Of a stretch of 64,000 nt of DNA, positions 570 to 64,000 are shown one piece after another. A program made the position numbers and the translations under genes. The notes under the pieces were generated by a model. That model was not told the DNA's origin. It searched no databases and saw only the letters and a list, made by a program, of their open reading frames with translations. Origin of the DNA: Amoebophrya sp. A120 (lineage: Eukaryota; Protista; Dinoflagellata); the NCBI GenBank assembly GCA_905178155.1, contig CAJINV010000004.1:4009555-4073554 (forward strand), written 5' to 3'. Positions within the stretch are counted from its first letter, which is position 1. Every line of letters starts with the position of its first letter.

Positions 570-1504
570 ATGTTTATCGCCAAGGAGCGTCGTTTCTGCA
601 AGCCCCTGCTGGAACAGCTTGGGAGGCAAAGATCAGCATGCGGAGCGCCGGCAGTTCCAGGACTGCAGGCAGAGCAAATGTGGATGCGTTTACCAAGCGC
701 GCCGCGACCACGTGGCAGTAGTCTACGAACAGCACGGGGGATGAATCAACATCAAAGCTATGGGACCACGAGAAGTAGTACCTGCAGCAGACGAGTAGTA
801 GATCATGCGTCTTTACTGACGAGCTCCGCAAGAACATACTCCACGTTCCTTGCAGCTACGCGCCGATCTTCCAGTTTTCCCAGTCTTGATGTTTCCTCGA
901 CCACGAGTAATAGATTGGGATTGGCAATTACAGGTATAATTGCAGCAACTCCAACTACCACGCTACCGCTAGTACCAGAAAACGAACCACATCAACAGCC
1001 ACAAAAACGTCGTAGCTTTGCCTCCGCTTCTCGCAAGGACGTGGGGGACGGCGAGGGGGAGAGCAAGCGGATGTCGGAGACGGAATTTCATTCCCTGGCG
1101 GACGACGCGTTGAATGCGTGTTTGGATTTAATCGAGGACCGGAACATCGACGAACAGATCGAGGTATCCTGTGCAAAAGTATCGTACTCGTAGTAATTGC
1201 TTTCATGCATGACAAATATCCCTTTTTGGCTGAATCAGCATGACAAATTCCATTTTCCCTTATGCAAAAACTTGTGATGCGATTTATACTAGTACGATAC
1301 TTTTGCAATGCATACGAGGACTACGACTTGGCGGACGGGGTGCTCAAGATCGTGGTCACCGCGAAGGACCAAATTGTGGTGAACAAGCACAACGCCACGC
1401 AGCAGATCTGGTATTCCAGTCCTTGCGGCGCGCAGTACTTCGACGCGCCGTATGGGGAGCTGGTCGGGGCGCTGGAAAAGGACTTGGGGGAACTGCTGCC
1501 TTGA
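570..1504 (+). CDS. FXN: Frataxin (CyaY family) with N-terminal extension, 2 exons
   Basis: Spliced C-terminus EFHSLADDALN...IE|DYDLADGVLKI...VVNKHNATQQIWYSSPCGAQYFD matches the frataxin signature. Interrupted by an introner at 1165-1314. Start ATG (570) is uncertain. Confidence 0.88.
1165..1314. mobile_element. Introner family A
   Basis: TIR tat-N4-tgcaaaagtatcgtact; direct repeat cgagg/cgagg; readable as GT-AG. Confidence 0.92.
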
Positions 1505-4500
1505 CAAGTAGGGCGAGCGTTTTGAACAAAAAATGACTTCTATATTGTTGACTCAGAAGAAGAAGATTACTCTAAGCGACTGCGTATCTCTTTGCGTTCT
1601 TTCATATTCGTATGAAAAGGCGACGATGTCGCGCAACGCGAAAATTGATGAAGCTGCGACCTACAACGGACGTGCGTAGTAGTCGCGCTTTTGGTGTCAG
1701 TGTCTTCCACTCGACGCTGTTTCCTTCGATGTGGTCTGGGAATTGTTGTTCAGCCACTGTGGTCAATACCGAGCCAAATTTCTCCAGTCAATCGGCAAGC
1801 GAAGGGCCGAGCTATCTCACAAGCGGGACAAAGTGCCGCGCATTCGCGGCGCCATGGCCATTGGTAGCCTCGTGGGCGTTCGCTTGGGCGGTAGTCCCAA
1901 GGGGGAGGGGCGCGAGGCGGGCAACGGGACCCCGAAGCCGCCGCAGTCGCGTGCGAAAGCACAGGCCCGCCTGCTCTGTGTTGCTTGGCGCCCCGGCGCT
2001 CGGGCGACGGGTCTCCTGCGTGAGGGCGGCCTCGAGCTCCGCCGCAAACAATTACACGCAGCCGCCCCCGGACCCCGGGCGGGCCGGCACTCGGTGCCTT
2101 GGGCGCTACCCACCGCCCGCCCCTAGAAAGTAAGGCCGGCATCTCCCTCCCAGGATGGATGGAGCGAGGTCGGTGTCCTCGCCCCTCGGCGAGCGTGCGT
2201 CATGCGTTCGCTCGGCGGCGTCTTTGTCCGCACCTTGTTCGCCACCGGAGCGAGGCGATGCTATCGAACCGGACGCGGTCAGTTCCGACAGATCTGCAGG
2301 ACCGGCACAAAGTCCAAGAGCGAGGAAGCAGCTAGTGGCAGACGCGCTTGCGCCAGGGCGAAAAGGAAACCACAGCGAAAGATGGAGCGCGCAGCAGTAG
2401 CGCGTGTTGCCGTCCTGGAAAGCCAGGAGAAAACGGCGGGCAAAATCCTCCGAAGAGTCTGCACGTTGTGCCGCGTTTGTAGCGCTGCCCGCAGTGCTCT
2501 GCGTGCTGTGTGAGCAACCGAGCGCATAGATATGAATGTCAGGCGCGGGGTGGTCTGCGCGCTCCCCGAAGGACAGTTTGGCGCCGCGTTTGTAGTGTTG
2601 TTAGTGGTGCTCTGCTCTGTGGGCCGTTGTGGCGCATAGAAATAAGCGCCACAACGCGCGAAGGCTCGCGCTGTTGGCCGATGGTGGCGCGCGGCCGGCG
2701 CACTTGCGCGTCTTTGCCTCCCTTGGTGGGCGCATGTCAGTGCGCACGAAGGCGACCCCGCCCCGCGCATTGGGCAGGCCGAAGAGGTTTGGGGCCCGCC
2801 CCGGCCTAATGCGCAGCGCGCCCCTCGGGAACTTGTTCCGCAGTCCCCCTATGGCTTTTGTTCTGCGAACGCCCGCAGACGCTTCGGCGCCTGCCGACGA
2901 AGGGCGGCCCGGCGCGCGGAGTTCGCCTCTTGGCCTTGCCGATCCCTTCCCCTTTCTGTGCCAGCGCTGCCGCAGGTCGTTGCCAGTGTTTGGCACCCTG
3001 CGCCGGCGGCCGAGTGCGCGGGGCCACTCCACTGGGACCAGGCAGCGCGGCACCCAGACGGCGCGGGCAATGATCTGCGCGCCCTACCGCGGAGAGACTG
3101 ACGTCGCCCGCTTGCTTCCATAGGAGGCCAGGCGCCCGCACCCTCCGGCAGCGCGCCCAGAGTGAAGAGGTGGAGGCGCCGCCTCCTTTGCCCCTGCCCC
3201 CACTTTCTGCACGGCGGTGACTGGTGTCGCAGCGCCCAAAAGGGGCGCCCGCGTGGCCCGCCCGTGCCCGCCTGGCCAGGCAGAAGGCTGGCGCGCGCGC
3301 GGCTTGTTTTTGTTTTCCGACCGCGCGCCCGCTGCCCCCGCCTAGCGCACACAGCGCGCGGGCGCGCCCACAGCGGGAATTGGGGTCGACGCATGCGACC
3401 GGGGGCCGGCGGAGGGGGGGCGCAAAGAAAGCCTTCGCGAAAAGGACGGCCGAGCGGGCGATGGGACCGGACGGAGCGAGGGTGGGAGCAAGGGAGGCAG
3501 CGGGCCCGCATTCCTCTTCTATTGGCACCCATGGCGCGGCCGAGGTTCCCGGATATTGGGACGCGACTAGCGCTGCCACCGGGCCGCCCGGCCGTCTGTC
3601 AAAGACCGCGTCGCCCCAACTAAGCCTGCAGGGCGATGCGACTGGGCCGGCCCAGGTGGCTCGTCCACGCACGGTTCTCGCAGTATAGCGTCCGACGTTG
3701 TAGCAGGAACGCCAGCCCACTAGCACTAGTCAGGGTAGTCTGAGATGGAGCTGGGTAGTTTGTGTCGACGCAATGGAGCTAGCGTCCGCCGACGTCTTTT
3801 GTCCATGATCTTCATCTTCTTCTTCTTCTGTGTTTTCGGCCTTTTTCTGGTCTGTTGCCACTGTGTTTGCGCGATGACGCTCGAGCTTGTCCCCGGTTGA
3901 AATAAACCTCGCTTTCGGTGGAACATATCACCTATTTAACCTCTTAGAAGAACATCAAACAAAGTCTCTTATAGTACTGATTTTGGTCTGCGAAACGTAA
4001 ATCCCCTCAGCACTACCGACGTAAAATTCTGTTGTCTGCGAAACGTAAAAACTTCTCGTTTATTTCAAATCATTATTTTCTCATTTCGTGGTCGTGGTCG
4101 CCTATTTTTCTGCATATTCTTATCGACCGTGGTGTTGATTGTTGTTCGTTACCGTCGCGTCCTGCTAAAGTTTTGCCTCTCTTCATTGTTGCCGATTGTT
4201 TCCCACAGCAGAAGCCCAGTGCTCGAACACGATCGGAGTGCACCAGCGAGGCATTGCTGGGTGAAGCCAGAAAAAGAAGCTGCATCATCAACACCTCCAA
4301 ATCCAGTAACACTCACACAACGACCACAAGAACGACGCACAGTTTGAAACTGTACTGAGGCAGCCGACATCGTCGCTCTCTAGGCCTGGCGTGAAAAAGA
4401 GAAAGGCAGAAGTACATCAGGCCCTGGTGGTAGGCTCTGAAGACTGCGAAGCCTTTCAGGAACAACAAGCGCGAAAAAGCTCTTCACCTTGGACACCAGC

Positions 4501-4517
4501 AGCGCAGTTCTGCAATT

Positions 4518-7095
4518 ATGACGACGCTCGGTGGTGGTCCCTCACTCGGCCGGGGGCCGTCGGGCGCGACAAAATTTCTGCTCAAATTTGACTCCTTCCG
4601 GGAAATACCCTCGGACCTGACCGAGCCCACGTTACTCGGCAGCGTGTTCACCCTCTTCGCATACTTTCTTTGCGGTACAAAAATTGAACTTGAACTGAAA
4701 GCTGGATCTTCATCACCATCATTTTCATTTTCGCAGTGCTAGAACGATGAATGTAAACGTACACAAGAACCTGCTGATGTTTTCCAGGACAACACACATA
4801 AAAATCCACCACACAACAGGTACACTTTTCATGTGCGAGCTGTGGGGCTTTTTGATGGCGGAACACTCTACCCGCATTGTCATGGACGGCAACCAGGACA
4901 AGCAGCTCCGCATCAACTTCGACATTTTGATGCACGATCTGGCGTGCAAGCACCTCACCATAGGAATTTGGGATTCCTTCGGCAGCGAGCGCCTGAACAT
5001 CACCAGCAATATTGTGAAGTCCAGGAAAATGCACGACGGTATAGTATTGACATTGACCACCTACATTTGAACATGCGCTACATATTTTTACCCTCTAAGT
5101 CATGTGTTACAGCTACGCGTTCGCTTCATGAAGGGGTAGTACTACGGCCGCACAGAGCTGCAACTGCAAGATCTTTCTCCTATCGCTCTCCACCAAGACT
5201 ACATCTACAGGTACGTTCCATCCCTACACGGATTCGGAGCTCCTAGCGTTGGACAAGCACAATTTCACCGCCGAAGAAATGGAGGAGTACAACAAGGACT
5301 GGGGCAGCAGCGCCGAGAAGCACATATGCACTGCAAAAGTATCGTACTCGTACTAATTGCGTTTATGCATTACAAATTTTTTTGTGAACGCAAATCCGCA
5401 TTACAAAATCAATTTGTAATGCTAAGTCAAGTTGTAATGCAATTTATACTCGTGCGATGCAATGCTTTTGCAGTTCATAGCACACCAGCTTCGATAACGT
5501 GATCGAGAGCCACGACTTCACCTTTATAAATTTTTACGCGGGTTGGTGCCACCACTGCCGCATGTTCGCGCCGGAATGGGACAAGTTCGAGAAGGAGGCC
5601 AACTCCAAGCCCGGCGAGCTGGTGGACAGCAACGGTTCTCCGGTTTCTGTGCGCGTGATCAAGATCAACTGCGTGGACTTCGAGGAGACCTGCAGCCAGG
5701 AGCAGATCATGGGGTTTCCCACCGTGCGGCTCTACCGACGGACGGTCACGAAGCGGCGGTCCTTCTCCGAGTTTCCGCAGGCCCGAAACGCGGCCGCCCT
5801 CTCCGAGTGGATCAAAAAGGAGCTGAAAAAGCAGGAAGTAAGCAACCCCAACCTGCAGTTCCACAACTTTTTTTCCGAGGGCTGCCGCGCGGAGGGCTTC
5901 GTGGAGGTCGCGCGCGTCCCCGGAACGCTGCACCTAGAGGCGTCGCACTCGGACGACACGAGTTTGAATTTCGCCTTCACCAACGTGAGCCACACCGTGA
6001 ACCACCTCAGTTTCACTACCGCGGGCGAGTTGTCCAAGTACCCCACCCGGGTGCCGCGCAGCTTCGAGGAGCACGTGAATGTGTTGGACGGAAGAAATTT
6101 TTTCACCTCCGGCTTCCACCAGGCCCCCCACCACTACATACAAGTGGTCTCCACCTTTTTCGAGACGCAGAAGGCCCGGAGCTACCAACTCACGCACCAG
6201 CAGCGCCTGGCCGCAGTGTCGAAGCACAGCACGCCACAGGCGAAGTTCTCCTACTCCCTCTCCCCAGTCGAGGTGCGGGTCACGCAGAGCGGCTTACGGA
6301 AGTGGGAAAGCATCGTAATTTCGTCATAGATAAAGATCTGATGCACTCTCTCTCGTCTCTCGGTCTCGCAGCATCAGCATTGCATCTTCATATAAGTAAC
6401 TTTGTTGGCATAACGGTGACAATCAAAATAGAAATGCGAGGAGGCTGCTGGAGAAATTTCTATGACCGGACAAAAGTCCTTAATTCCGGATTTTGCTAGC
6501 GGTCTTTATAGAAATCCTAGCGGTCCCAGCTTGCTAGCTGACTAACGACAGCGACGCCGTCCGCCCTGGGAATGCACCCACACGCCAACGATTTCAAAGC
6601 AGTACACTGCAGCGGTGTGGCTCTTTGCATTCAATGCATTGAGCCAACAACCTTGTTGAGAAAATAGCAAAGGCGTCTGTGCGTGATGGCTATAAAAGCT
6701 GCGCAGTCATAAATATCACGCTTTGACACGAGTATGATCGTCATTTTTCTAGCGAACTGGGATCGCTAGAAAATCTATAAAGGCCGGTAGAAAATCCGGA
6801 ATTAAGCAAGTTTTGTCCGTTCATAGAAATTTCTATTGTGGATGGAATGACAATGAGCGGTTGCTGCGGTGCCTGTCGTGAAAAAAAAACCTGTCGTGAA
6901 GATCATGCTTTTCCTTTTTGTAAGTACGTGCATTTTACGATGGACTTTTGCCCGCAATACACCAAAAGATGGTACGAATTCATCACGTCCCTGTTGGCCA
7001 TTGTGGGCGGGGCCTTCACCGTCACCGGCATGCTCCAGGCTTCCACGGCAGCCGCAAAAAGGGCCCTGAAGATAAATCTGAACAAAGTGGTGTAG
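4518..7095 (+). CDS. PDI-C-type protein: ERGIC_N + thioredoxin (WCHHC) + COPIIcoated_ERV domain, 5 exons
   Basis: KFDSFREIPSDLTEPT..G (Erv41/46 N-terminus), FYAGWCHHC, GCRAEGFVEVARVPGTLH, FSYSLSPVEV, KW|YEFITSLLAIVGGAFTV. GT-AG introns 4675-4819, 5039-5210, 6302-6968; introner 5325-5479. Confidence 0.9.
5325..5479. mobile_element. Introner family A
   Basis: tatgcactgcaaaagt...cttttgcagttcata; direct repeat gcaca/gcaca; non-canonical ends. Confidence 0.9.
6452..6834. mobile_element. MITE/foldback element with ~85-bp TIRs inside a GT-AG intron
   Basis: 6452-6537 is an imperfect reverse complement of 6749-6834; both ends carry the palindrome agaaatttct. Confidence 0.8.
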
Positions 7096-7821: not shown

Positions 7822-10800
7822 ATGTTTTCGTCCGCGGCGTCCGCGCCTTTTGTTTCCACCTCCCGCACAGGAGGTGGTGCTTATCCTTATCCACAATACG
7901 ACGGCCCAACAACACCGCCGGTTCCCTACCTCGTGTGCTCCTTCGCGGTGACAGAGTTTGCACAGGCGGACATCACGCGGGAAAGTTTTGTTTCCTTGCT
8001 GCACTCCGAGCTGCGGAAAGTGAACAACTTTGCGTTGATGAAATACGACGGAGTCAACACCGCGTTGCGCCAGGCGTGGAAGGAGCTGGACGAGATGGCA
8101 AAGGAGGAAGCCCGGGCGGGTGACGTGACCACGAAACACACCCGCGTGTCCAAAGAGCGACTCAGGGGCAAGATCCGCGCGCAGGGCGAGGAACTCTGCT
8201 GGCTCGACTGGTTCCTGCGTGAGAACAAGGACACTTTGCAGCAAATTTTGGTGGAAGCGCAGGAGCGGAGGCGGGAGGATGAAGAGGATCGTAGACGTCG
8301 TGCGGCGGACAGGAGCAGGAGCAGCAGAAGACATCATGAAGACGCGACTATGCATTCAAGACGGAGCAGGGAGACGACGGAAAGAAACACGACCCCTTCG
8401 CGCGAAGTAGTGGAAGATGACGAAAATAACGATGATGATCCACTACCCAGAGGAGCAGGAGGTGGTAGTTCAAGTAGCTCTTCTTCGACGAGTAGCTACA
8501 CCTTTGAGCCAGAAACCACGACGACCCGTCGAACTACGACGAATAAGCGCGACAAAGATTTTTCCAATCGGAGAAACAAAAGGTCCTCGTCTTCAGGTAG
8601 AAGTAGTTCTGAGGAAGTAGACCCCGCTGACACGAGAACTGGGGACGGAGCGAGAATAAATGCTACTGGGCATCAAGGAACAAACCGGCAAGATCCTCGT
8701 CCTCGCAAGGATAAGCATAAGGAAACAACACGCAGACGTAACAAGACAACGGCGCAGGTGGATGTGCATGAGCTACTCGAACAGTACCTTGCGGCTGAAG
8801 GGGCGACTTCTACGCCCGACGTGGATGATGTTCCGGAACAGGAAGATGCCGTTGGTCCGGCTGGTGCCGCATCAACAAATGACGTTCATGTTGATGAAAG
8901 ACGACATGATATTGGTCAACAACACCACCTCCACCCGCAAGAACCTCCCGCAGCCGCCAGCAGTTCTACCTCTCGCGTGTACGCGAACCGGGTGTCCTTT
9001 GTGGCTTCGTCTCTCGGCGCGGACTCGACCACCTTCCTTTCGCTGCAGCTCGACGAGCTGCTGATCCTGCTCTCGTTGACCTGGCAGTCACTCCGCGGCG
9101 GCGGCAGCAAGGCCGAGAAGTGGCGGCCCGGGGTGAAATTTGTCCGGAAAACGCAGAAGTACTGGGTCCCCAAATCCGAGGTGGTGCGGCTGAAGACGGG
9201 GATTTTGGAACACTTGCCCTACTTGATCTTCGGCAAAAGCGTCCAGGAACTGGGGAAAATCTTGCTGCAGCCGTTCCGCGGCTACCAACTACAGGTGTTG
9301 AACAAGCGTGCTACGAACAAAGTCGTGGACCGGGAATCTGGTAGAAATGCAAGGTCAAACACAAACTCTTCAGGTGGTCGTGGTCAAGAACATAATCTCT
9401 CAAAAGGCAGCCAGAATGAGAATCAGGACGATGTTGAGGTGGAGGGCGACAGAATGAATGACGATGATACAACGAAGAGCACACCGGCACCGCAATCTGG
9501 TCGTCAGGGCGGGACCACTACCTTTACCGCGGCGCGCAAGAGCAACAGCAATAGCAGAGGAACTACTGCAACTGCAAGTAGTAGACCTTCGAAAACAAGC
9601 AAAAGAACAGACTCAAGCCAAAGCAAGAACAAAAAGTCAGACGAAATTGCTGTCGCTCGGCAGGAAGTAGACGAGGTAAATGACGACCCTCTGGAGGACA
9701 CGGACCAGCAGCCGGACGACGAGGAGCCGCGGGTGTGTGAGACGCAGCAGATTACGTCCGTGTATTTGGACTCGCCGGACGCCACGTGCTACCACCGCCG
9801 TATCTTGCGGGAGGAGGGCGCGCGGCTCGTGAGGTACCGCTGGTACGGCGAGTCGGACGAACAAGACCCAAACGAGGAGATTTTCATGGAGCGCAAAATC
9901 CACCACGAGTGCTGGGTGGGCGATTCCAGCACTAAGGAGCGATTTACGATTCCCAGGCTGCTGTTACCCCAATTTCTGCAGTTGACGAGGCCAAGGAATG
10001 GGTTCTTGCTTGGGCCAGATGAGGATCTAAAAGATGATGAATTGCCGATTTATTCCACCAGTGACGGCGAACGCGAAGGAACTACGACCACCACGAGCAT
10101 AGGGGAAGACGAGGACCAAACCGAGCGGAGGCGCCGCGAGCGAAAGAATGATAGAGGTGTTCAACATCATGATGGAACTGTAGTTCCTGCCGCGTCTACG
10201 AGTAGCACTTCTTCTTCATCCGAGGTGGAGGTCGAGGGTGAACATCAAGGACGTGGTCCTGCTCGTGGGCGACGGGCAGGGCCGGGGGGTGATCGTGAAC
10301 TTCACGGTGCGGATGTTGAGCATCGTAGATTGAAGATCACGGGCCCACCGGTGGAACAAGCTACGGCGCAGAAGTACTTTTATCCAGGAGCAGCTGCTCT
10401 ATTCGCAAAAGGTCTTCTCCAGCCTTTACTTCATCGGGGCAACAAGGAGAACGCAGTGCAAGAACATTATCAACGCCAGGACGAAATGAAAATTGTGCAA
10501 CAGAAGCTGCGTAGCTCGTCGTCGTTACCACCGTGGTATCTCCTGTGGTGGCAGAGATACATCGAGAGTCAGCAGGAGCAGCTTTTACGACGCACGACAG
10601 ATGAAACTACTATCGGGGAGGAAGAGTTGGACCCCACCGTCAGAGATGAGCGGGCTGAAGCGGAACTCCGCAACGCATTGCAGCTCGGACGCGAAATCCT
10701 CACGCTGCTGCACACCGACTATCAAATGTAAAAATGTCTGGGTCTGGAACAATGCAACTTGTCATGCTAAATTTGAAGTATGCAAAAATATGCGTTGCAT

Positions 10801-12394
10801 GATTACCAAAAGCCGTCCAGTTTTGACCAAGTCGGGAGGGAGTTTCTCATGCAGGATAGGCATGAGAGAGATCGCACAGAATCTGTCATGCTAGGTCCTG
10901 CATTGCAGACCTTATGGGTCATGGAAAAGCTCCATGACAAATCGCGCATTCTTCCAGACCCAGACATTTTTGCATTTGATACCGACCAACTCCGCCCGAT
11001 GATCCGCACTGCCTACAAGCGATGCGCCTTCCAGAGCGCCAGCAGCAACGAGCTGCGTATCTCACTGGACGTCGACATGCGCCTTCGCAAAGAGCATGGC
11101 GTAGTGAAAATGCCCGATGCTGATATGGATGCAGCTGTTGTTAGTACTCGAAATCCAACCAGACAGGAGAAAGCGAGGCTAAGCAGAAACCCAGCAACCG
11201 CAAATAAAGACGACGATTACCTCTTCCCCTACGCCATTTTGGAAGTGAAACTCGCTGGTCTGGCGGAGAATCCTCCGTGGGTGCAGGACCTGCTCTACCG
11301 CTGCCGAGCGATATGCATTGCAAAAGCATCGTACTAGTACAAAACGCATGACAAATTTTTCGTAAAGGAAAAATGAAATTTGTCATGTTGCAGAAAGCAG
11401 ATCTGTCATGCAAGACCTGCATTTAGACTTATACGAGTACGATACTTTTCCACAGGATAGGCGACGCAAGTGTACAAATTCTCCAAATTTCAGCACGCCA
11501 TGACGTTGCTGCACTATCAAAAAGTACCCTACAAACCGCACTGGTACGCGGATTTTGAACGGGGCGGTGGGCTGGCAGCTGTGCCTGTGAGTAATAGCCG
11601 CGAAGACATGCTGGGGGATGAACTAGGTGGTGGCTATAGTATCACAGGCGAAAGGAACTACAGGGATGAAAACGCCGGCACGCTCGTTACGGCCGTGGAC
11701 GTGGACGGCGGGGGTCGTCGAGAGTTTGACGAAAACGAGGGAACTACAAACACGATCAGCACCGCACTAATATCGACGTTAGCAAACCAATCGCACAAAA
11801 TCCGGAACATGCGCGTTTTGGAGGCCAAAGCGTTTTTCGCCAACGAGCGGACCTTCGTGCACTACGCGAAGCACGTATGAGAGTGCACAACTCCCCCTCC
11901 CCCTCATTTGTAATGCAAAGTACCAAGTTTGCACCTTGCTCGCAAGCACTGTTAGCATGACAAATTTTGGAACCTAAGATAGTATTACAATCCGCATCCA
12001 GATTTGTCATGCGAAAGCCCCTTTTCTGTATCTGTTGTTACTTGTGTTCGTTGCTGTTCATGCCATACAAAAGAGGGGGAGGGGGAGTTGTGCACTCTCA
12101 TAGCGCGGGCTGGTCTTTCTCCTGTTTCTCCGCTACATTGCGCACAGCCAGAACGAGACGTGGCGGGGCTTGAGCTTCGTCCTCGCCCCCTTTCTGGGGA
12201 CTTACTTTGTCTGGTGCCTCCTGATGTACCAGGATCGCACGCAAATCTTGGTGAAGCAGGAAGCGGTCTGCCGCAGCAAAAACTACCGCATGGACAGCGC
12301 CGAGGGACCGCTGCTGAGCTTCTTCCTCGCGGTTACGCTGTTGTTTGCGGTGCTGGTGTTGTTTTTCTTCGTGGATGAGGACGAGGGGGTGTGA
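7822..12394 (+). CDS. VTC4: VTC4-like vacuolar polyphosphate polymerase (partial SPX + VTC + DUF202 TM region) with long low-complexity inserts
   Basis: ELRKVNNF (SPX-like), FVRKTQKYWV, ITSVYLDS, RYRWYG, ERKIH, RTAYKRCAFQ, FPYAILEVKL, KFSKFQH, FFANERTF. Frames join after removal of three introners. The true start may lie upstream. Confidence 0.87.
10720..10981. mobile_element. Introner family B
   Basis: TIR tatcaaatg(t/c)aaaaatgtctgggtctggaa; direct repeat ccgac/ccgac. Confidence 0.93.
11312..11459. mobile_element. Introner family A
   Basis: Direct repeat agcga/ggcga; readable as GC-AG. Confidence 0.9.
11876..12102. mobile_element. Introner family C
   Basis: Perfect ~30-bp TIR tatgagagtgcacaactccccctccccctc; direct repeat gcacg/gcgcg. 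Confidence 0.92.
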
Positions 12395-15618: not shown

Positions 15619-16865
15619 TTGCCGGCTTTCTTACTGCTGGTGGCGGACAAGAATGTTGCGGACCAAGTCGGTGTCGCCAGCAACGGGCGAACATCTCACC
15701 TGACGGCGACGGGCGGGGTCGACAGCAGGCAACAAGACGAACAGTCCGCATCCCCCCCGTCGGTCTCGGAAATCGAAGACGAAGGCCGCGGAGAAGAGGA
15801 AAATCATGCCCCGAACCCCCGAGAAGCTTCCTCCACTTCTTTTTCCCAAACGGACAGCGTTCCGAACTCGACGCCAGCGGATTCTTCCCACACGAGTTCG
15901 ATTTGGAATGACGAGGTGCAATCTGCGCGGTTCGAGGGGCAGTTCATGATGTATTTGCACACCACAACTTCGATGGAGCAACAGCTATTGCACACTGTTA
16001 CTCCTGATGAGATGCGGAAACTGCAGGTATTCGTATTGATGGCCATCGCCATCATCATGCTTTAAGTAAAAAAAGAAGAACTTTGCAACAAAAATAATCA
16101 TCAACATCAGAAGACAATAGAATAGTTTATTGCACATAAGATGAGTTTTGACTTTGATGACGAAAGGGAAACCAAAGCAATAGTTGTCCTTGTTGTCGTC
16201 TACTGTGACATCCTGCTTCATGTTGACCGATCAAGCGAAAAAGAAAAATAATATATCACGCTAAGGTACTGAAACAAGGGTTCCAGCTATACTCTCCCTG
16301 CTTGCTGCTGAGGTTCCCGGCGTACCGATATGGTTTGAAAGTTTTGAACTTATGCAATGCACAACAAGAAGTATCTGTAATATCGTACTAGCAATGTATT
16401 AAAAAATTGCTTGACAAATAAATCTGCGTCTGGCAGCATGCTGAAGATCATCAAAAATCGAATTTGTAATGCTTATAATTCGGCATCGGCTCCTTGATCA
16501 TGATCTCGAGAACCAGACCATCTATCATGCACGATGGGAATGAATTAGTACGAAAACGATACTTGTTCTTTTGCACAGCATAGAGCTTCGACGCCGACAA
16601 CAATTACATGCTGAACCAAACCGAGTTCACGATATGCAACCAAAAAGTGATGTTACGGCTTTGCTTTCTACACGTTGTATTGCGGGACAAGCACGACGGA
16701 CAATCGATCCCTGTCATGCCGTACATTCCTGCGAGCGTCTTTTCATGCGTGTTGTTCCTCTTCCTTACGATGACGAACAATCGCAGCAGTAGTAGCGGTA
16801 CCTTTTGCTTTTTCATAATGCCTGGAACAACGCTAAAAAATTTAGAGAATTTTATGTGTCGCTGA
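15619..16865 (+). CDS. Probable multi-exon hypothetical membrane protein; exon structure unresolved
   Basis: ORF 15619-16065 ends in a hydrophobic stretch. Removing element 16351-16582 gives an open frame FPAYRYGLKVLN|FDADNNYMLNQTEF. Confidence 0.35.
16351..16582. mobile_element. Degenerate family A-like introner
   Basis: tatgcaatgcac...gatacttgttcttttgcacagcata; direct repeat gaact/gagct. Confidence 0.7.
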
Positions 16866-16993
16866 GTGAAGTTCTAAGAACAAAAACAAAGGTTTAATAG
16901 ACTGTCTCAAGCACTTTTTTCCTTGGATACGCGAACTTTTTTGACCGGTACGGCGGGACGAAGCCATCGACTTCGAACGACACCACACTGCTG

Positions 16994-45900: not shown

Positions 45901-48900
45901 GCTATGTCTAGCGTGAACCGCATGACAAGTGGGCTTTTGCATGACAGACAAGTGGCACTGTAGCGCACCAAGCATGACAGATTGTTCTGTCTTGTCAGCC
46001 AAGCATGACAGACTTGCATTCTTCCAGACCCAGACATTTTTGCAGTTGATAGTGCTGCCAGCAGTTCCATTTGTTTAACTTGTGCTTGCCGCTGCACCTG
46101 CAGTCCGGCCGGCAGCTGCTGGAGAAGATGGACAGCAAGGGGGGTTTGATCTGCAACTCCGCGAACTTCAAGTTGTTTCTGCAGCACGCGAGCAAGAATT
46201 TGTTCCCTTTGTTGGAAAAGCTGGTCAGCGAAAAAGAGAACATGGACAAGGCCATGCAGGAATTCTCCACCGGAAAGGGCATCGATCGCGAATCGGTATT
46301 TTTGTGTGTTTTGTTTTGATGAAAAGCGAGGAATTATAAAGCCCAAATTTGTATAAATTCATCCTTCTTTACCAATAACAGATTGATATAGATGTCGAAA
46401 TCGAAAATAATCCAAAACTCCAGATCCTGGCGCCATTCACGATGCAGATGCAGTTGCAGAACTTTATGTCCCTCCTGGACCTCGCTGACCAGAAGTGCTA
46501 CGAGGCCATGCAGCACCCGGACGACAGCGCGGACCGGATCGAGAACATGATCCGCTTGGTGCAGCTCTTCTTCGAGACGCTCAGCTTTCTGGAAACCTTC
46601 AACATCAACAAGGTCGAGAAGGCGAGATTTGCGGCGAGAATCCAGTCCAGGCTTTTGTCCAACCTTTACTACAACAAACACGAGGATATGAGAATGGTAT
46701 AAAAAATCATGCTGGAATCAACATTTTCAACATGAACATTGCTGCTGGCCGAGGCCACGTGGTGCCATGTAGTCACAATGAATTATGGGAGGCGAGAACC
46801 TCCCATAGAGATAGAAATTCTTCTCTAGATGAAGAAAAAGATATCCCAACGTCACGCTATAGATTTTCCCCATCCATTTGTTCCGACAAAAAATAAAAAA
46901 CCAACACCAAGAAGCATTTCTACAATGAAGTACACGAAGTTCGAATTCCTCGATGTAATTAATTGTAATTACCTACCACCACAGGTCCTCTCCACGATGA
47001 TTCACCTGCATCCGAAGGCCTACCCGGAAGTCGAGGCGGAGACCAAGTACCCGAACTTCGATGAAGCAGATTTCAAGAAGGCCAACCTTCCGTTCACGGA
47101 TGCGGAAATCAGCGAATTCATTGCGGATTTGGAGGAAAAAATCTCCTCCGTCGAGGACGTGGACGGGACGCGCCGGGATCTCACCGCGACGCTGTGCCGG
47201 GTCTACAACTTGTTCGTCAACGACGAGTATGTGAAGGCAAGAAAGATCATGCACTACCAAGACCTGCAGAAGGAGGTATAAGTTTTTGATTGAAGATGAA
47301 ATCGCATGACAAATTTTCATCTCAGCATGATGAGAAATGGAATTGGTATATGCGGATTCACCTTAAGAGAAAGATTTGCAATGCGTGGCTTTGACTGCAT
47401 CCAACGCCAACTACACCACCGCACCAGGTGTCCAACCGTGAGGAGCACCAGTTGTCGAGCCGCGAGTACGAACACTCTCTCTACGTGCTCTGGAACCGCT
47501 ATGGATGTGTCAGGATTGAAATCGACAAAATTGAAATGATTTGTCATGCATAAAATGCAAGGCATGAAGTGCCTTTCTTGCCAGGATGGCAAGGGAGACC
47601 GACTGTCAGCCTGTTTAGGGTTTGAAATAGAGCTGCTAAAGTAGCATGACAAAAGCAGGCGTCTGTACCCAAACAGCATGACAAATTGGATTCCGGTGCT
47701 CGGAAAATTTGTCATGCACCGCTTGAAAGTTGGGCTTCCAACTGGTATCGATTTTATGCATTGCAAGTTATTTCAACTTTGACGATTTCAATCCTGACGC
47801 TTTCATAACCGCGTGAACGCGCAGATGGGGCTCGCTGCCTTCCGCCAGGGCCACTTTTACGAGGCCCACATCGCGTTGCTCGATTTGAACTCGTTTCAGA
47901 AGGCCAAGGAACTCCTCTCCCAGGGCGTGACCTTCCAACGCGGCTCGGATCGGGATAAGGAGAAGGAGGAACTTATCCTGATGAAAAACGTCCCCGCCCC
48001 ACAATTGTCATGCAGAATTGCAAGGACAGGAACATTTGTAATGCGCATCCCCAAGAGAGGCATAATCAATCGTGTTTTGGCATTTGTAATGCTACAAACA
48101 GGACAAGGGGACGGCTTTGTAATGCGGCTGTGCTTGCTAACCAGCACTACTGAATACAGCGAGAAGCCTGTCATGCGTGATTCCCAAAACATTTGGATTT
48201 GTGTTGCCTTTTCCCTTCTTGACTCTGGTGTGGGGACGTTTTTTCACAGGATAGAACTCCAGGAGAGGTCCATCATCCCCTACCACATGCAAATCCCCTT
48301 GGACTTGCTGGAGTGCGTCGCGTTGATCTGCGGACTACTCCTCGAAGTGCCCAACATGGCGTTTTTGGCGTACGACAAAAACGGCAGGAAACGCTACCAG
48401 ACGATTTACAGCAAGCCGTTGAGAACGGCTTTGGAAAAAGCGGAACGGTCCACGGTTCTCACCCCCGCTGAGTCGATGCGGGAAAGGATTGTCGAGTCCG
48501 CTCGTTTATCAAATGCAAAAATGTCTGGGTCTGGAAGAATGCAACATTTGTCATGCATATTTTGCATGCCCCACGAGGTCTGGGACAGGTTCTGCGAAGT
48601 ATCTATCTTCATGTCTATCCTGCATGACAAACTGCCGCTAAACTTGTTCAAACGTGGACGCCTTTTGGTAATCATGCAACGCAAATTTCTGTACTATCCA
48701 GACTTAGCATGACAAGTTGCAACCTTCCAGACCCAGACACTTTTGCAATCCATACCGTTCTCTGCAGCAGGGCAACTGGAAGAAGGCGTTTGAAATCTTG
48801 GACAACGATATCCAGGTGTGCAAAACGCACTCGGAACTGATGGCGAAGGAGAAGATTTTCGAGGAAAAACTCCTGCCCGAGGTCAAGCAGCAGGCGGTGC

Positions 48901-52084: not shown

Positions 52085-55000
52085 ATGGCTTCCACGACGA
52101 AGAAGTTCAGCAATGTCAACCTGAACGCGCCCAAAACTGCGAAGAAGACAACTATCTTCGAAACCGTCGTCACCTCCGCTAAGCCCGCTCTCACTTCGGC
52201 CGCGGCGCCCGCCCGTATTGCTTGTTTATTTTACGGCACGCTTTCTGATTTGCTGGTTTTTTTTTTTCATCTGCAACTGCATGCACATAGTATGATCTTC
52301 AAACTGAAAGTCCAAGAGCCGCCGAAACGACCTGTGCGCTGAACAGTGCTGGTAATGTCACACTGGCTGGAGAGATATACACATCACGAGCTCTTTTGTC
52401 ACAAATTTTCCACGAGATGTTCTTGCATCTTCTAGCGGGGCCGGGGTCAACTGGTGTGCATAAACAAGATGAGCAGTAGTTATCAAAATCAAAATGAACG
52501 ACTGCATTGTATAATATCCAGGTTCAATCGGGCGTGCCGGACTTGCAGGACTATGTTCTCTCCCCACGGTAAACAAGAAGCCGGCGAAGAAGGCGAATTT
52601 GCTGGATGCGCTTGCAGACGAGGCCAAAGGAACCAAGGTCATTGAAGAAGACCTTCCGGTGCCAAAGGTACGATGAAACTTCGTGTACTCTATTTCTGCA
52701 TGAAGTTGTACAGCCTTCTTTGGCCGCAGGGTTTATCGTAGGTGCATGCGCATAATAGTAATGGAACTGCAAAGGTAATTGAAATAGAAATTTCCAAAAT
52801 TAAATCAAAAAATGAAAACAGGAATCAGATGAGAATACGTACGAAGAGGAGGCTCTGGGAAAGCCAGTTTCTTGGGCCGACCAGAGCGAAACTGTTGAGG
52901 AGGACTCGGTAGGCGCTGCGGGTGCGCAATCTGCGAAAAAGCCACAAGATGGCGGCCCGAAGGTACTTACATACTTACTTCTTCTAAGCTTCTACTTCGC
53001 TTGGCTGTTTTATTCAGCATGATTTTTCTACACGTGAAGCTCGGCGGGAAGACTGATTTTTTACAGCCGGATTTTGATGTTTCGCGACGACGCAGGCACC
53101 ACCTTCGCAAAATGATGTTCTTGAGTCCCATGCTTCAGTAAAAAAAAAAAAAACAGAGCAAGTGGGGCGCGGCTGTGCAAGCCAAGTCGATGCAGGAGAT
53201 TATGGAAGAGGAAAAACAGAAGGAGGCGGAGAAGAAGGCCTGGCAACTGAAGAAGCAGCAGGAGCAGGCGCACCTGGGAAACACCGCGTGGAATGGGCGC
53301 GAGCACTACGGTGCGGGGTTCAACGCAAACACGTACGGGCAGTACGCCGGTTCCCCGGGCAGCTACGATCCCTACGGGAGTCAGCCCAACAGCGGCACCA
53401 ACTTCAACACCGTCGCCGACCGCGACCTGGACTGGCGGCGGGGCGGGTCGAACAGCGGGCTCGAAGCTGACCCAGCTGTCGCCACCAAGACAGCGTATTT
53501 TTTTACAAGGGTGGACTTCTTGTTGTGCTTGTTCTGCTAGTACTACTGGTTGAACAAAAATCAAAATGCCGATTTAATGCATTTTTGCAGTTATAATGTT
53601 GTCGTTGATATGTTTGGTAGTTCTACTTCTATCTTGTTGAAGGACAAGAGGAGCTTGTTTTGTAATGCGTTACTCCTTTATTTCTATTTTCACAAAACTA
53701 CAGCGAGCGGTACTCCAGCAAGCAGTATGAGGAAGAGTTTTCCAAGACGTACTCGCGCGAGCCGAAATTTACCTCCGACCCGGTGGACCGAGCGTCTCTG
53801 TTTGGCACCGCGAAGCAGACCGACGGGCCGGCGGATAATTCAGAGGAGCTCCCAAAGTCTTCGAAAGAAAAGAAAAAGGATAAGGAACAACACCAAAACA
53901 AGCAGGACAGTACAACGACTGGAGGTAGAGACAACACCCGAGGCGGAGAACGCGAACGGGAACAGCCAGCTTCAGGTACTACTTCTGCTGGTGGTAAGGC
54001 GCGAGGAGGAAGGGGCGAATACGCAGCAGGTGATGGCGGAAGAGCTGATACTACTTCTTCTTACTCAGCAGAAAAGCCACTGATTCACCAACACCACCGA
54101 GGGGATAGAGCGGGTGGTCCAAGAAGTAGACAAATTGACTTGCAAAACGACAGCTACAGCCATTCCTATGGCGAAGATTTGCAACATTCAAGTGAACAGC
54201 ACCATCCTGCTGCGGAGAACTGGCGCGGCGGGGGAAGTAGTGCTGGCAACGGTAGAGTCGACCGGGAGCGTGGCGGCGAGGACCGCAGTAGCACAACAAT
54301 GACCCGCGGCGGGACAGGCGGAAGAGAAAACAACCTGCTAAACCGCAACTTGAGCAGCGGTGGCCAGCAGCACTTGAAGAGCCAGTACAGACGCGACGAC
54401 GACCACGCGGACAGCTATTACGACAGAGACGAAGACTATTACTTGCGCGACGAAGTTGGAGTTGCACTGTCTCTATGAAATGCAAAAATGTCTGGGTCTG
54501 GAAGAGTGTGAACTTGTCATGCAGGTTTTCCATGACCCTTGGTTGAGGCCTGGAATGCGGGACCTAGCATGACAGAGTCTGTGGGGTCTCTTTCATGCCT
54601 ATCCTGCATGAGAAACTCCCTCCCAACTTGGTCGAAAGTGGACAGCTTTTGGCACTCATGCAACACAGGTTTTTGCATGATTCGGATTTAGCATGACAAC
54701 TTGCAATCTTCCAGACCCAGACATTTTTCCTTTTGATATTCTCGAGGAGAACGAGAAGTAGAGCCGTCGACCAGCCGAAATAATGCTGCGCAGTACGACA
54801 GCTTTAACCCGCGAAGTAGAACTGCGGCCGGGTCAACGAAGGGAGGAGGACAACATCAAGATGTTGGATCATACTCGGGTACTGCTACGACCAGCCGAGG
54901 CGAAAGTCATCAAAATCACCCTGGCGGCAGAACCGCCCGGGGTGAACATCAGGCTGCTCAGCAACATCTTGAGCACAATACCAGAACTCCAAAGCAAAGT

Positions 55001-60432: not shown

Positions 60433-63400
60433 ATGTCTGCGGCGGGGCAATCTGCGGCCATGGCGTCCGCGGACGCGGCGGCTGTGATGCCCACCGGGCT
60501 TTCCCGCGACATCGACGGGAACATTCGGACTCTCTCGTGGGAGAAGCGTCTGGTGCGGGGGTTCGAATCCATGTTCTTGTCCAGCAACAAGGAGGTCGCG
60601 CCGGCGTACTTGGCAAAGACGCTGACCCGGCAAGAAGTCATCAAGGGCGGCGGGGAGACGAAACCCATGCCATTGGGACCGGATGGCAAGCCCATTGTCG
60701 ATCCGGTTTATGAGGAAAAGCTGAAGCGGAAAAAGCGGCGAGTGAGGTATTTGCACCAGGCCTGGTCTTTTGCGTACTTATTTTTCTTCACAACCTTCCA
60801 TGCAGCACGTCTTGTCGCTGTATAGGACGAGGTGCAAGATCAAAAACAAGTACGCCAAAAGATAGATCATAAAAATGAAAATCTCATGCATGCAAGACCG
60901 GTTCGTGGTCAAGTGCTACAATCAAAATCAATATCAAAACAGAAACCTCTATTACGTGGCGATGTTTTGGTTCCTCCTCCTGAACGCCACACTGATCTAC
61001 ACGGGCTGGCAGTACTTTTCCGCGGTTCTCCCCTACACCCGCGATGTGTACATAAAGTCTACCGCCGGGCCGCGGTACGCATTGCAAAAGTACCGTACTT
61101 CCAGTACAAATCGAATGACAAATAATCTTGTCAGAGGCAAAACTGAAACTTGTCATGCAGATTGAGGTAGGAAACCCAAACCAGATTTGTGTTTGTTATG
61201 CACGGTTTGTTGTAAGTACTTGTACTTCGAGTGCGACTACACTTTTGCAATCCATACACGGGTTGCGCAGAGATTCCGGGACTTTATCGAAACCACAACG
61301 TTGGAGCCGATCAAGCGGATCAATAACGTCATGCAGAGGGGGTTTTTCCGGTTTTACCCGTCCATTTACAACCATGTGAGCCCGATTAATTTCCACTATG
61401 CATTGCAAAACAAAGTATCGTCGTCGTATGAATGCATTACAAATTTCCTCAGCATGAGAAATAAAATCTGTAATGCGGATTTACCTTTAGAACAAAATTT
61501 GTAATGCATGACTGCAATTACTACGAGTACGATACTTCTGCACAGGATATCCACCTCGTGGAGGCCATGTTCGGATCGACCTTGCTCGCCCGGCGGGCCA
61601 TCCTAAAGCTGGAGATGGGGTTCGAGGGCACGCGGCAGGACAGCGCGTTCGGCGCCATGCGGTTCTTCCGCGTCGGGCCGAAGGAGCAATTGGTGCTGCA
61701 GACCGACATCCAGAAATTTTGCACGGAGGGGGTGGGCATCTTTGGCTGCACGCGCAACATGACGCTGACCAACGACAAGTGGTTTCGCGATTTGAAAAAC
61801 GTCGGTCTCGGGACCATTCTGACGCAAACGCGTTTGCAACCGACGCATTTGGATCCCTTCGTTCCGAGCCCGCTGCTGATTCCCATGCCGAGTTTGTGTT
61901 CCTACCCGCACTCCGCCACCGCGCAGAGTATGATGGTCAACGCGATGGCGAATATGGCTTCAACATCAAGTAGTAGTGCTGGCTCTGGCTCAAGCAGTCT
62001 CGCGATCATCACCTACGAACAGCTCTTCCAGCAATATTCCAACTTCCCGTACGCCTACCGCGGCCCCGAGTTCCAGCTCGAGCCCGGAGTCTACCACAAC
62101 CTCGGTGTCGGCTGCTGCCAGCCGGATGCGAACGAAGTGTTGGCCCTGCAGGGACCGGCCGTGAGCAACGCAAACTGCCGGCACCAGTGCGATTTGCGCG
62201 GGGTGGATTGTGTGGGATACGACTACGACCTGAGTAAGCAGAGGTGCTGGCTGCAGACGGGAAGTACGGAAGTGCAGTCGGTTATGGGAGTGTCAGGACT
62301 GATGAAATCGTCAAAGTTGAAATAGTTTGTCATGCATAAAATGCAACGCAGAAAGTGCCTCTATTGCAGAGAACGCAAGGGAGGCAGATAGTAGTGCTGG
62401 TAAGGGTCGAGCATTGGGCTGCTGATTAGCATGACAAAGGGGAGCCCCTTTGCCCTAAACAGCATGACAAACTGGCTTCCGGTACGGACGAAATTTGTCA
62501 TGCACCGACTAGAAACTTTGAGGCAAATTGGTATCGATTTTATGCATTACAACTTATTTCAACTTTGTCGATTTCATGATTCCTGACACTTCCATATCGG
62601 TGTCGCTGAACCCACCGACGGACACCTGTAATGCGTGCTACGCGAAGAACCTGACCCTGACGAACCACTTTGACGCGAATGCCACGGCGGTGAACAGCAC
62701 GCTGCTAGACCAGGAGCGGCAACTGGTGATCGAACAGAAACTGCTCGAAATGGCGCGACAGGAACCGAAACTGCACGAGCACCTCGGGCCGATCGAGGCG
62801 GGGGACCCGCGGAGTTATGCGGATTTGCAGCACGAACTGCAGTACCTACAGCTGTACGGAAATTGCAGTCAACGGACCTCGAGCCCCTTTCTCCAATGGG
62901 AACAGGCCCAGAAGACCGCGAGCGCCATTCTGGAGGCGCATAGAACCTTGTTTCAGAAGTACAGCAAGGAAAACTGGTATATTAGCACTGGAACAACATC
63001 TTCAGGCAGTAGTGGTAGCGGTGGTACAACAGGAGCATCTACTTCATCTTCTAATAGACGGGTATTGCAGACAGATATAGATGAGCCTCCTCGTCCCCTG
63101 GAGGACCAGCAGCTGCCCCATCATCAACCGCGGTGGTCGCAGATAGAAGCAGAAACAGGAACAAGTAGAAATTATCGAGGTGGAATAAAGAAAGCCGATG
63201 TGATGTCGTCCGCAAAAAGACGAGTAGCAACTACTTCCAGTAGCAGAAGATCAGGTGGCGCTGGTCGTACAACAACTAAAGTAGAGCAGCTCTTGCAAGA
63301 GGGCATCAGAACAAATTCAAATGTAGAGACCACGAACACGAAGCACACGATGCGAGAAAAAAGAAAAATGCAGATGAGACAACACCGAGATACTAGCCAC

Positions 63401-64000
63401 TACCACATTGAGAACAAGTGCGGCGGGCGGCAGAAGACAGTGGAGGAGGAAAAGCGGTGCGAGGTGAGGAAAAAGAGAAGAGCATCTTCTGCTGGGACAC
63501 GAGATGCAGTTGCAGATAGAATTTTTTGGGAGAATGAAAGGAACGGTATTAACGGAATACAGGCGGAGAAGCACCACACGCTCCATCTTCGAGAGCAGCC
63601 TGGCGCTCTTGAGACCGCACGACACCAGCGAGACCGCAAAGGACTCGATCGTGCGGGCGAGGGCGCAGAAGTAGCATCTTCAAGGTTGCACCAGAAGTCC
63701 TTCTCAGGACAGACAGCAAAATCGAGGGTAACGGCTGCACGGGACGACGAGCATACGAGTAGAGCTTTAGCCGCGCACGCAGCGACGAACAGTTCAACGA
63801 ACGGAACTGCAACTTCGAGCTCCGCCGTATGGCCTTCTCAAATGTTACACTCTCAAGCTCAACTGTAACATGATTTGTTTTTGTCATGCGAAATTACAAG
63901 TAGAATCTGAATCGACACGATCAAGCTGCTTCGCATGACAAATTCTCGAAACGTCAAACAGGCTGAGAATCTAGTCCAAATTTGTCATGCAAGACGCGCA
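60433..64000 (+). CDS. Membrane protein with a PAN/Apple-like Cys module; 3' truncated by the window
   Basis: TM segment LYYVAMFWFLLLNATLIYTGW; GCC...CRHQCDLRGVDCVGYDY...RCWL. Frame restored by removing three introners; a fourth starts at 63828. Confidence 0.7.
61076..61256. mobile_element. Introner family A
   Basis: tacgcattgcaaaagtac...acttttgcaatccata; direct repeat cgcgg/cacgg. Confidence 0.87.
61397..61549. mobile_element. Introner family A (reverse of 1165-1314)
   Basis: Ends gcaattactacgagtacgatacttctgcacaggata; direct repeat tccac/tccac. Confidence 0.9.
62283..62596. mobile_element. Introner family G
   Basis: Similar along its length to 47500-47807; direct repeat tcggt/tcggt. Confidence 0.9.
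63828..64000. mobile_element. Introner family F, truncated by the window end
   Basis: tatggccttctcaaatgttaca resembles the 30039 terminus; three internal ttgtcatgc/gcatgacaa motifs. Confidence 0.75.

What the first reader, a model, noticed from the sequence alone, without database searches (positions are those of the whole stretch)
1165..64000. A non-GT-AG intron system: about 7 TIR families obey one rule (5-bp direct repeat | TAT...ATA | 5-bp direct repeat)
Seen: 26 complete elements of 109-452 bp interrupt coding frames, including conserved genes (eIF3c, frataxin, VTC4). Deleting the element plus one 5-bp repeat restores the frame (host frame uncertain only for 16351). Sliding the junction within the repeat gives GT-AG for only 1165 and 31161, and GC-AG for 11312. 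Known: introners with inverted and direct repeats and non-canonical splice sites are reported from Amoebophrya genomes; to my knowledge the excision mechanism is unresolved. Inference: the other 23 are removed by a route that reads the hairpin, termini or repeat rather than the splice dinucleotides.
Basis: partly seen in the sequence, partly recalled or inferred. Interest (0 to 1): 0.9.

Follow-up and report, generated by a model that had tools for sequence, protein, structure and literature searches.

The report
Amoebophrya transposon introns without GT-AG
A marine parasite's genes are interrupted by small hairpin-shaped, transposon-like inserts that mostly lack normal intron ends and are missing from the assembled transcripts that could be checked; this intron class is already published for this organism, and the new detail is that the cut likely falls one base before the hairpin, where its first letters would mimic an ordinary splice donor.

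Summary
Real, but already described. The window matches Amoebophrya sp. A120. Farhat et al. 2021 reported this organism's TAT-starting inverted-repeat introners with direct repeats. I count 28 complete elements (109-452 bp) plus one with a decayed repeat, all in exons. The rule is looser than stated: 17 of 28 repeats are perfect and 4 elements start TAC. RNA-like contigs lack element plus five bases at 4 sites by length arithmetic; DNA-like contigs keep elements. In 172 further oriented copies GT-AG is no commoner than chance (4 vs 7.3), so removal does not need it. Added here: the cut keeps 3-4 bases of the left repeat, most likely 4 (N|TAT...ATA NNNN|), which lines TAT up with the genome's ordinary GTAT donors. 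The 5' TA is unchanged in all clearly oriented copies while the 3' end decays, the repeat seems dispensable, and a strand-symmetric GCATnACA motif is shared across families. Best guess: an adapted U2-type spliceosome positioned by the hairpin (0.55); no lariat or branch was tested. The scan noted similar hairpin-bounded introns in other genomes.

The parts
1165..1314 (+). Element, family B, in frataxin; repeat CGAGG; GT-AG at the proposed register
5325..5479 (+). Element, family B, in PDI/ERGIC-type gene; AT-AC at the proposed register
   Evidence: joined frame colinear with homologs P0128, P0129
6295..6959 (+). Old 665-bp element (TAC...ATA), repeat decayed to 2/5; keeping 5 left bases gives a stop, keeping 3-4 is colinear with homolog P0128
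   Evidence: an alternative GT-AG join 6302-6968 is also open
6461..6825 (.). Nested TAT...ATA element inside the 6295 element, 8-bp flanking repeat
10720..10981 (+). Element, family A, in VTC4-like gene
   Evidence: junction equals deposited protein P0121
11312..11459 (+). Element, family B, VTC4-like gene; repeat 4/5
11876..12102 (+). Element, VTC4-like gene; repeat mismatch at position 3, left copy gives the conserved His
16351..16582 (+). Element; mismatch at position 3, left copy gives the Asn shared with homolog P0180; the deposited model instead uses a 9-nt micro-exon 16437-16445
16633..16929 (+). Decayed element; mismatch at position 2 (deposited protein keeps the left copy, homolog resembles the right copy)
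18382..18667 (+). Element, family D
20622..20874 (+). Element, family A
22439..22547 (+). Element, family E (109 bp)
29034..29172 (+). Element in aspartyl protease gene
   Evidence: spanned whole by a DNA-like contig
29314..29453 (+). Element, family B, aspartyl protease
30039..30287 (+). Element, aspartyl protease
30419..30681 (+). Element with family-A termini, aspartyl protease
31161..31422 (+). Element, family A; GT-AG only if slid to keep 1 left base
33178..33424 (+). Decayed element (TAC start); the paralog at 35583-37076 has no element here and matches the left repeat copy
33777..34228 (+). Element (452 bp, TAC start)
34294..34402 (+). Element, family E; absent from RNA-like contig, whose piece starts at position 2 of the right repeat
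36513..36792 (+). Element, family A; no stop and no frameshift if kept, yet absent from RNA-like contig
36846..37004 (+). Element, family B; absent from RNA-like contig
45798..46051 (+). Element (TAC start) in eIF3c; absent from RNA-like contig
47500..47807 (+). Element, family C, eIF3c
47974..48253 (+). Element, family D, eIF3c
48507..48754 (+). Element, family A, eIF3c
54474..54738 (+). Element, family A
61076..61256 (+). Element, family B (TAC start)
61397..61549 (+). Element, family B
62283..62596 (+). Element, family C
63828..64000 (+). Element cut by the window end, 5' terminus like that of 30039

Best explanation
These are non-coding elements with paired ends and 5-bp flanking repeats that sit in exons and are missing, with five extra bases, from the RNA-like contigs checked; they are likely transposon-derived and likely cut out by an adapted ordinary (U2-type) spliceosome that the terminal hairpin positions. 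SHOWN: anatomy; presence in DNA-like and absence from RNA-like contigs at 4 sites; no GT-AG enrichment; both orientations relative to the host gene; strong predicted hairpin. INFERRED: (1) a DDE transposase or integrase made the 5-bp duplication and binds the strand-symmetric GCATnACA subterminal motif. (2) The cut keeps 4 bases of the left repeat, so the intron reads N|TAT...ATA NNNN|. The TIR's TAT then supplies donor positions +2..+4, as in the genome's GTAT donors, and only +1 G and the final AG are waived. (3) The hairpin brings the ends together and the 3' cut is measured four bases past the ATA; the first A of ATA (-7) is a candidate branch base. (4) The repeat only restores the coding sequence and is not read.
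For: RNA: X1 record 3 has 47 letters between its pieces, equal to both elements plus 5 removed; record 4 has 517, equal to 45798 plus 5 removed; record 2 starts at 34404 with 60 left over. GT-AG 4 of 172 vs 7.3 +/- 2.6; repeat bases show no obvious splice-like bias. Register: at least 1 left base from RNA at 34294 and 36513; at least 3 from conserved residues at 11876 and 16351; at most 4 from the stop at 6295. All nine predominant A120 non-canonical sites in Farhat Table S4 are NT-NN. 23 of 23 hand-picked canonical donors are GTA, with +4 T17/C4/A1/G1. Terminal decay is strand-asymmetric: TIR positions 1-2 changed 0 times at the 5' end and 8 times at the 3' end, position 3 changed 7 vs 1 (TAC x6, TAG x1); Fisher p=0.0014, post hoc. 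A120 keeps most spliceosomal proteins and U2/U4/U5/U6; U1 RNA and snRNP27 were not detected. In yeasts a +4U donor preference goes with loss of METTL16 and SNRNP27K (PMC11732430). Fold z mean -7.0 vs -0.55 for canonical introns.
Against: No lariat, branch point or spliceosome dependence was tested. Registers 3 and 4 were not separated by any polarised mismatch. The upper bound rests on one element, where a GT-AG join (6302-6968, atypical GTG donor and AAG acceptor) is also open. At 16633 the homolog matches the right repeat copy. The deposited protein P0179 uses a micro-exon inside 16351. G at +1 (56 of 200) and AG at the end (14 of 200) are no higher than repeat composition suggests, so no pull towards canonical ends is seen. 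The asymmetry count is 16 events after dropping 5 of 20 rows and adding 6295 by hand; three kept rows (L004, L019, L074) have weak or conflicting orientation, and dropped L139 could be a 5' change. Canonical donors were picked by eye. Waiving both +1 G and the final -1 G needs a changed active site (own knowledge). No transposase partner was found, and Farhat found none in A120.
Confidence: 0.55

Rival explanations
1. A spliceosome-independent route (a hairpin-guided endonuclease and ligase, or a separate machine) removes the elements, as proposed for euglenid nonconventional introns that are released as circles.
For: Both orientations are used (43 vs 25 for family A); strong hairpins; no canonical pull at +1 or at the last two bases; U1 RNA not found in A120; euglenid introns have a similarly offset TIR and form circles (review PMC11282704).
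Against: The invariant 5' TA and variable third base copy the canonical GTA(T/C) donors of the same genes. Terminal pairs are broken in several copies (ACA, ATC, ATT, TAC). The spliceosome is nearly complete, and the tunicate precedent is spliceosomal.
Confidence: 0.27
2. The two repeat copies are read or exchanged during removal, and the junction slides within them.
For: Repeat mismatches are skewed to silent changes (25 silent, 22 replacing; ratio 0.28, below the 0.5 floor for one free copy at p=0.03 uncorrected). Farhat's Fig. 3 legend calls the sites variable.
Against: After transition correction the ratio is 0.32-0.37 and no longer below 0.5 (p=0.09-0.19). Elements with decayed, displaced (L037), 8-bp (L074) or 77-bp (L075) duplications fit removal of element plus 5; best in 5 of 7 well-scoring repeat-less cases, the same rate as the control (99 of 141).
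Confidence: 0.1
3. The elements are removed through nearby canonical or semi-canonical sites, sometimes changing the protein.
For: A GT-AG join exists at 6295; P0179 is modelled with AT-AG and GA-AG introns and a micro-exon.
Against: Exact element-plus-5 arithmetic at 4 sites with no GT-AG option; homolog P0180 lacks the four extra residues; P0121 follows the simple rule at 3 of 3 junctions.
Confidence: 0.05
4. The elements are excised from DNA in some life stage (IES-like), so transcripts come from element-free templates.
For: TA-bounded ends and direct repeats resemble DNA excision substrates (own knowledge). Only one DNA-like run was laid, and 568 of its joints were not shown.
Against: DNA-like contigs run through or into elements at even depth of about 30. 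Strand-asymmetric terminal decay is not expected of a DNA reaction. Removal of element plus 5 also fits where there is no repeat.
Confidence: 0.03

Closest known systems
Introner elements (IEs) among the non-canonical introns of Amoebophrya sp. A120 (Farhat et al. 2021, PMC7789003; read: abstract, passages, sections 10-12 and 16, supplement passages and part 3 of 5; figures not seen)
   Same: Same organism by protein identity; IR starting TAT, seven variable bases, then 3 or more A; direct repeats of 3-5 nt (a 5-bp example in the Fig. S19 legend); many families; hairpins; RNA-supported removal; no transposase found.
   Different: The paper calls the splice position variable or unknown. In the parts I read it gives no fixed N|TAT register, no link to GTAT donors, no terminal asymmetry and no shared internal motif.
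Micromonas/Aureococcus introners (MITE-derived spliceosomal introns; review PMC11282704, passages and section 6)
   Same: TIR plus target-site duplication; one duplication copy leaves with the intron so the protein is unchanged.
   Different: Those keep canonical ends, one from the element and one co-opted from the duplication. Here insertion shows no selection for GT or AG.
Fritillaria borealis non-canonical introns (review section 6; abstract of PMC13326754)
   Same: Transposon-derived, TIR and TSD, removed by an adapted U2 spliceosome.
   Different: Those favour AG-AC/AG-AT ends and use duplicated U2AF; here both terminal dinucleotides are close to random.
Euglenid nonconventional introns (review section 6)
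   Same: Hairpin brings the ends together, TIR offset from the junctions, TSD-like repeats, non-canonical ends.
   Different: Released as circles by an unknown route; pyrimidine|purine junction rule; no donor-like UA(U) start described there.
IS3EU/GingerRoot DNA transposons (PMC10045372, passages)
   Same: TA..TA termini. An integrase-like origin is also hinted for some A120 introners (PMC12130899, passages).
   Different: TSD is usually 6 bp there and 5 bp here; no transposase found, so the superfamily is unassigned.

Membership tests
Amoebophrya A120 introner elements | Organism is Amoebophrya A120-type | tested here: met
   Two window exons are 100% identical to proteins named Amoebophrya sp. 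A120
Amoebophrya A120 introner elements | IR starts TAT, 7 variable bases, then an A run | tested here: met
   195 of 200 5' ends are TAT; A at positions 11-13 in 177-189 of 200; definition
Amoebophrya A120 introner elements | 3-5 nt direct repeat at the boundaries | tested here: met
   5-bp repeat, perfect in 17 of 28 and 4/5 in 11
Amoebophrya A120 introner elements | Repeated families, non-GT-AG ends, removed from transcripts | tested here: met
   Families; no GT-AG, GC-AG or AT-AC at 24 of 28; absent from RNA-like contigs at 4 sites
MITE (non-autonomous TIR DNA transposon) | Short, TIRs, TSD, many copies, no coding capacity | tested here: met
   109-631 bp; longest ORF 85-118 aa in four single-pair candidates over 450 bp, judged by eye as not transposase-like, no family scan run
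MITE (non-autonomous TIR DNA transposon) | Autonomous partner with the same TIRs | tested here: inconclusive
   None in the window, 270 kb of loci or viral contigs; whole genome not held
IS3EU/GingerRoot | TA..TA termini | tested here: met
IS3EU/GingerRoot | 6-bp TSD | tested here: not met
   A sixth matching base in 58 or 27 of 172, near base frequency
U2-type spliceosomal intron | GT-AG (or GC-AG) ends | tested here: not met
   4 of 172 GT-AG, at chance level
U2-type spliceosomal intron | Donor +2 U and +3 A conserved | tested here: inconclusive
   Met if the register is 4; bounded to 3-4
U2-type spliceosomal intron | Lariat intermediate, snRNP dependence | not testable with these tools
   Needs lariat sequencing or knock-down
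Euglenid-type nonconventional intron | Circular excised RNA without a branch | not testable with these tools
   No usable raw RNA reads (3 reads laid)

The most novel reading that the evidence does not exclude
All TAT...ATA families are spliced at one fixed register, N|TAT...ATA NNNN|, by a spliceosome that needs neither the first G nor the final AG. The transposon end itself serves as donor +2..+4, the first A of the closing ATA is the branch, and the 3' cut is measured from the hairpin. That would let any 5-bp-duplicating insertion, in either orientation and at any exonic site, become a perfect intron at once.
Probability: 0.35. Interest if true: 0.8.

Novelty: already known. Interest (0 to 1): 0.45.

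Why it matters
The class is published, but how it is spliced is still open in the papers I could read. A fixed register and a candidate branch base turn 'unknown mechanism' into a direct test: lariat sequencing, and allele reading at mismatched repeats. If right, it shows how a spliceosome can drop both terminal G checks and so neutralise tens of thousands of exonic insertions, and it gives a simple rule for annotating genes in this lineage.

Tried and rejected
Whole genome not held; records behind the loci not held, so the sample stayed at 270 kb plus the window. No RNA holder on record was listed; raw RNA runs X8 and X9 laid 2 and 1 reads, which is no evidence either way. No RNA was laid on 1-28899 or 48900-64000, so 15 of the 29 elements have no RNA check. 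Skew of repeat mismatches to position 1 (6 of 11 in the window) vanished in the larger set (7, 11, 7, 7, 5): rejected. GCATnACA as branch point: no sense-strand preference (285 vs 336) and equal conservation at both ends: rejected in favour of a DNA-binding site. Both repeat copies under coding constraint: not significant after correction. L075 as evidence for register 0: it is a 77-bp duplication, excluded. Polarising position-4 mismatches by eye failed. Viral contigs: 0 hits. Prokaryote genomes: 1 single hit, not followed. Rfam: 0 at gathering score. The A120 PDI/ERGIC protein was not returned by the search of longer proteins. Look-alike findings by place: none. Literature searches listed no paper resolving the mechanism or stating the register; most subscription journals are outside the library, and Farhat's figures (S19-S25) could not be seen.
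Full report
OBSERVATION. The elements are real. A scan for paired termini with a flanking repeat of at least 4/5 gave 25 elements at TIR score 7 or more, against 0-2 (mean 0.45) in 20 shuffles. I added three weaker ones by hand (16633, 33178, 61397), making 28 of 109-452 bp. There is also an old element with a decayed repeat (6295-6959), one nested in it, and one cut by the window end. Removing element plus five bases opens the host frame at all 28; 26 of 28 contain an in-frame stop if kept. All 29 complete, non-nested elements lie in exons, which make up at most 55% of the non-element DNA by hand-drawn gene spans. The rule is approximate: 17 of 28 repeats are perfect and 4 elements start TAC. 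The slide result stands (GT-AG at 1165 and 31161, GC-AG at 11312), plus AT-AC at 5325.

IDENTITY. Two exons are 100% identical to proteins named Amoebophrya sp. A120. Farhat et al. 2021 (PMC7789003; abstract, passages, sections 10-12 and 16, supplement passages and part 3) report 65% non-canonical RNA-supported introns in A120. They describe IR families that start TAT, then seven variable bases, then at least three A, with direct repeats of 3-5 nt. My terminal profile over 200 elements matches that description. The class is therefore known in this very organism. Another Amoebophrya strain is mostly canonical (PMC12005148 passages).

RNA AND DNA. Four runs were laid on 28900-48899. X1 is RNA only by the tool's guess, but its contigs skip GT-AG introns and have no depth over 40239-42239. 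Record 3 has 47 letters between 36508 and 37005, exactly what removal of both elements plus five bases each leaves. Record 2 starts at 34404, position 2 of the right repeat, with 60 letters left. Record 4 has 517 letters between 45791 and 46984; this fits removal of 45798 once the acceptor of a neighbouring canonical intron is placed at 46423, which I chose after seeing a 42-base gap. None of these four has a GT-AG option. For eight more elements the evidence is indirect: no long retained pieces appear among the longest listed. X5 (DNA-like, depth about 30) runs through or into elements; most of its joints were not shown. Raw RNA runs laid 3 reads. The other 15 elements had no RNA laid. The VTC4-like gene joined by the rule equals deposited protein P0121 at 3 of 3 junctions. 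P0179 instead carries four extra residues, explained by a 9-nt micro-exon inside 16351, which homolog P0180 lacks; this is probably a modelling artefact but was not tested.

LARGER SAMPLE. One terminal pattern found 164 loci, all in one public assembly (JACKZZ01 contigs; the scan covered 14 of 64 parts); its relation to the window's strain was not determined. They hold 233 elements with repeats of at least 3/5 (192 perfect). 172 could be oriented with a codon model that was right in 15 of 15 window cases at the same margin, though trained on the window. GT-AG is reachable in 4 of 172, against 7.3 +/- 2.6 by chance. Family A lies in both orientations (43 vs 25).

WHERE THE CUT FALLS. Let k be the number of left-repeat bases kept. 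RNA excludes k=0 at 34294 and 36513. Conserved residues favour k of 3 or more at 11876 (His in P0121-P0124 and P0126) and 16351 (Asn in P0180). At 6295, k=5 creates a stop and k=3-4 is colinear with homolog P0128, although a GT-AG join with atypical sites is also open. At 16633 the homolog resembles the right copy while the deposited protein has the left. Farhat's Table S4 lists nine predominant A120 non-canonical sites, all NT-NN, which is k=4; how ambiguous junctions were placed there is not known to me. With k=4 the intron reads N|TAT...ATA NNNN|. The 23 canonical introns I picked by eye (of 24 listed, one not located) all start GTA, with +4 T in 17 and C in 4. Among 279 elements, 20 had a changed terminal triplet. 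I dropped three doubtful pairings and two unorientable rows and added 6295, leaving 16. TIR positions 1-2 changed 0 times at the 5' end and 8 times at the 3' end; position 3 changed 7 and 1 times (Fisher p=0.0014, post hoc; three kept rows weakly or conflictingly oriented). The same T-to-C change is seen six times at position 3 and never in a clearly oriented copy at position 1, so strand-biased mutation alone does not explain it. This is the pattern expected if TAT serves as donor +2..+4 (inference).

IS THE REPEAT READ? Probably not. Repeat mismatches spread over all five positions. Their silent skew does not fall significantly below the value for one free copy after correction. Elements with no repeat, a repeat displaced by 3, or duplications of 8 and 77 bp still fit removal of element plus 5; both long duplications exceed 5 by a multiple of 3. 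The test is crude: best in 5 of 7 well-scoring cases of 15 examined, control 99 of 141.

INTERNAL ANATOMY. Elements fold strongly (mean z -7.0, n=28) and canonical introns do not (-0.55, n=22). A motif GCATnACA occurs in 24 of 29 window and 162 of 172 other elements at about 8 per kb, and almost nowhere else. It sits 41 or 48-50 bases from each end with no sense-strand preference, so it looks like a transposase-binding subterminal repeat, not a branch point (inference). No autonomous partner was found. TA..TA ends recall IS3EU/GingerRoot, whose duplication is usually 6 bp, so the superfamily is left open.

MECHANISM. I commit to an adapted U2-type spliceosome positioned by the hairpin (0.55). 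A120 keeps most spliceosomal proteins and U2, U4, U5 and U6; U1 RNA and snRNP27 were not detected. In yeasts a +4U donor preference accompanies loss of METTL16 and SNRNP27K (PMC11732430 section 11). A tunicate spliceosome has adapted to non-canonical introns (abstract; review section). The main rival is a euglenid-like non-spliceosomal route (0.27). No catalytic step was tested here.

VERDICT. Already known as a class. The register, the terminal asymmetry, the dispensable repeat and the shared motif were not found in the texts I could read (searches; figures unseen). They rest on small numbers, but they make the open mechanism directly testable. Earlier scan notes describe similar hairpin-bounded introns in other genomes; I did not check them. 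Interest 0.45.

Noticed in passing
window 47276-47427 and 55251-55431: Canonical GT-AG introns that carry element remnants (an 89-bp core 81% like a short element, and a decayed 3' terminus), as if old elements turn into, or decay inside, ordinary introns.
   Followed up: partly
window 44254-45428: Long eIF3c intron holding a GC-rich repetitive insert (about 44370-45200) and a second copy of the upstream exon end (about 45200-45270).
   Followed up: no
window 32990-34465 and 35583-37076: Tandem paralogs with elements at different positions, each giving the empty site for the other.
   Followed up: partly
window 16437-16445: Deposited protein P0179 is explained by a 9-nt micro-exon inside element 16351; the homolog lacks it, so it is possibly an annotation artefact caused by non-canonical ends.
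   Followed up: yes
window 1900-3750: GC-rich (about 65%) stretch between genes with overlapping low-complexity open frames.
   Followed up: no
window 23913-25291: Threonine aldolase whose named hits after the A120 protein include bacterial ones; origin not examined.
   Followed up: no
whole window: All recognised genes lie on the + strand, matching the unidirectional clusters reported for this genus.
   Followed up: no
L074 1829-2108, L075 2029-2340, L037 975-1302: Elements flanked by 8-bp and 77-bp duplications and by a repeat displaced by 3 bases; all keep the frame under element-plus-5 removal.
   Followed up: partly
window and L loci: At register 4 the junction phase is 0 in 89 of 192 elements, the excess usual for spliceosomal introns (the comparison is from my own knowledge).
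   Followed up: no
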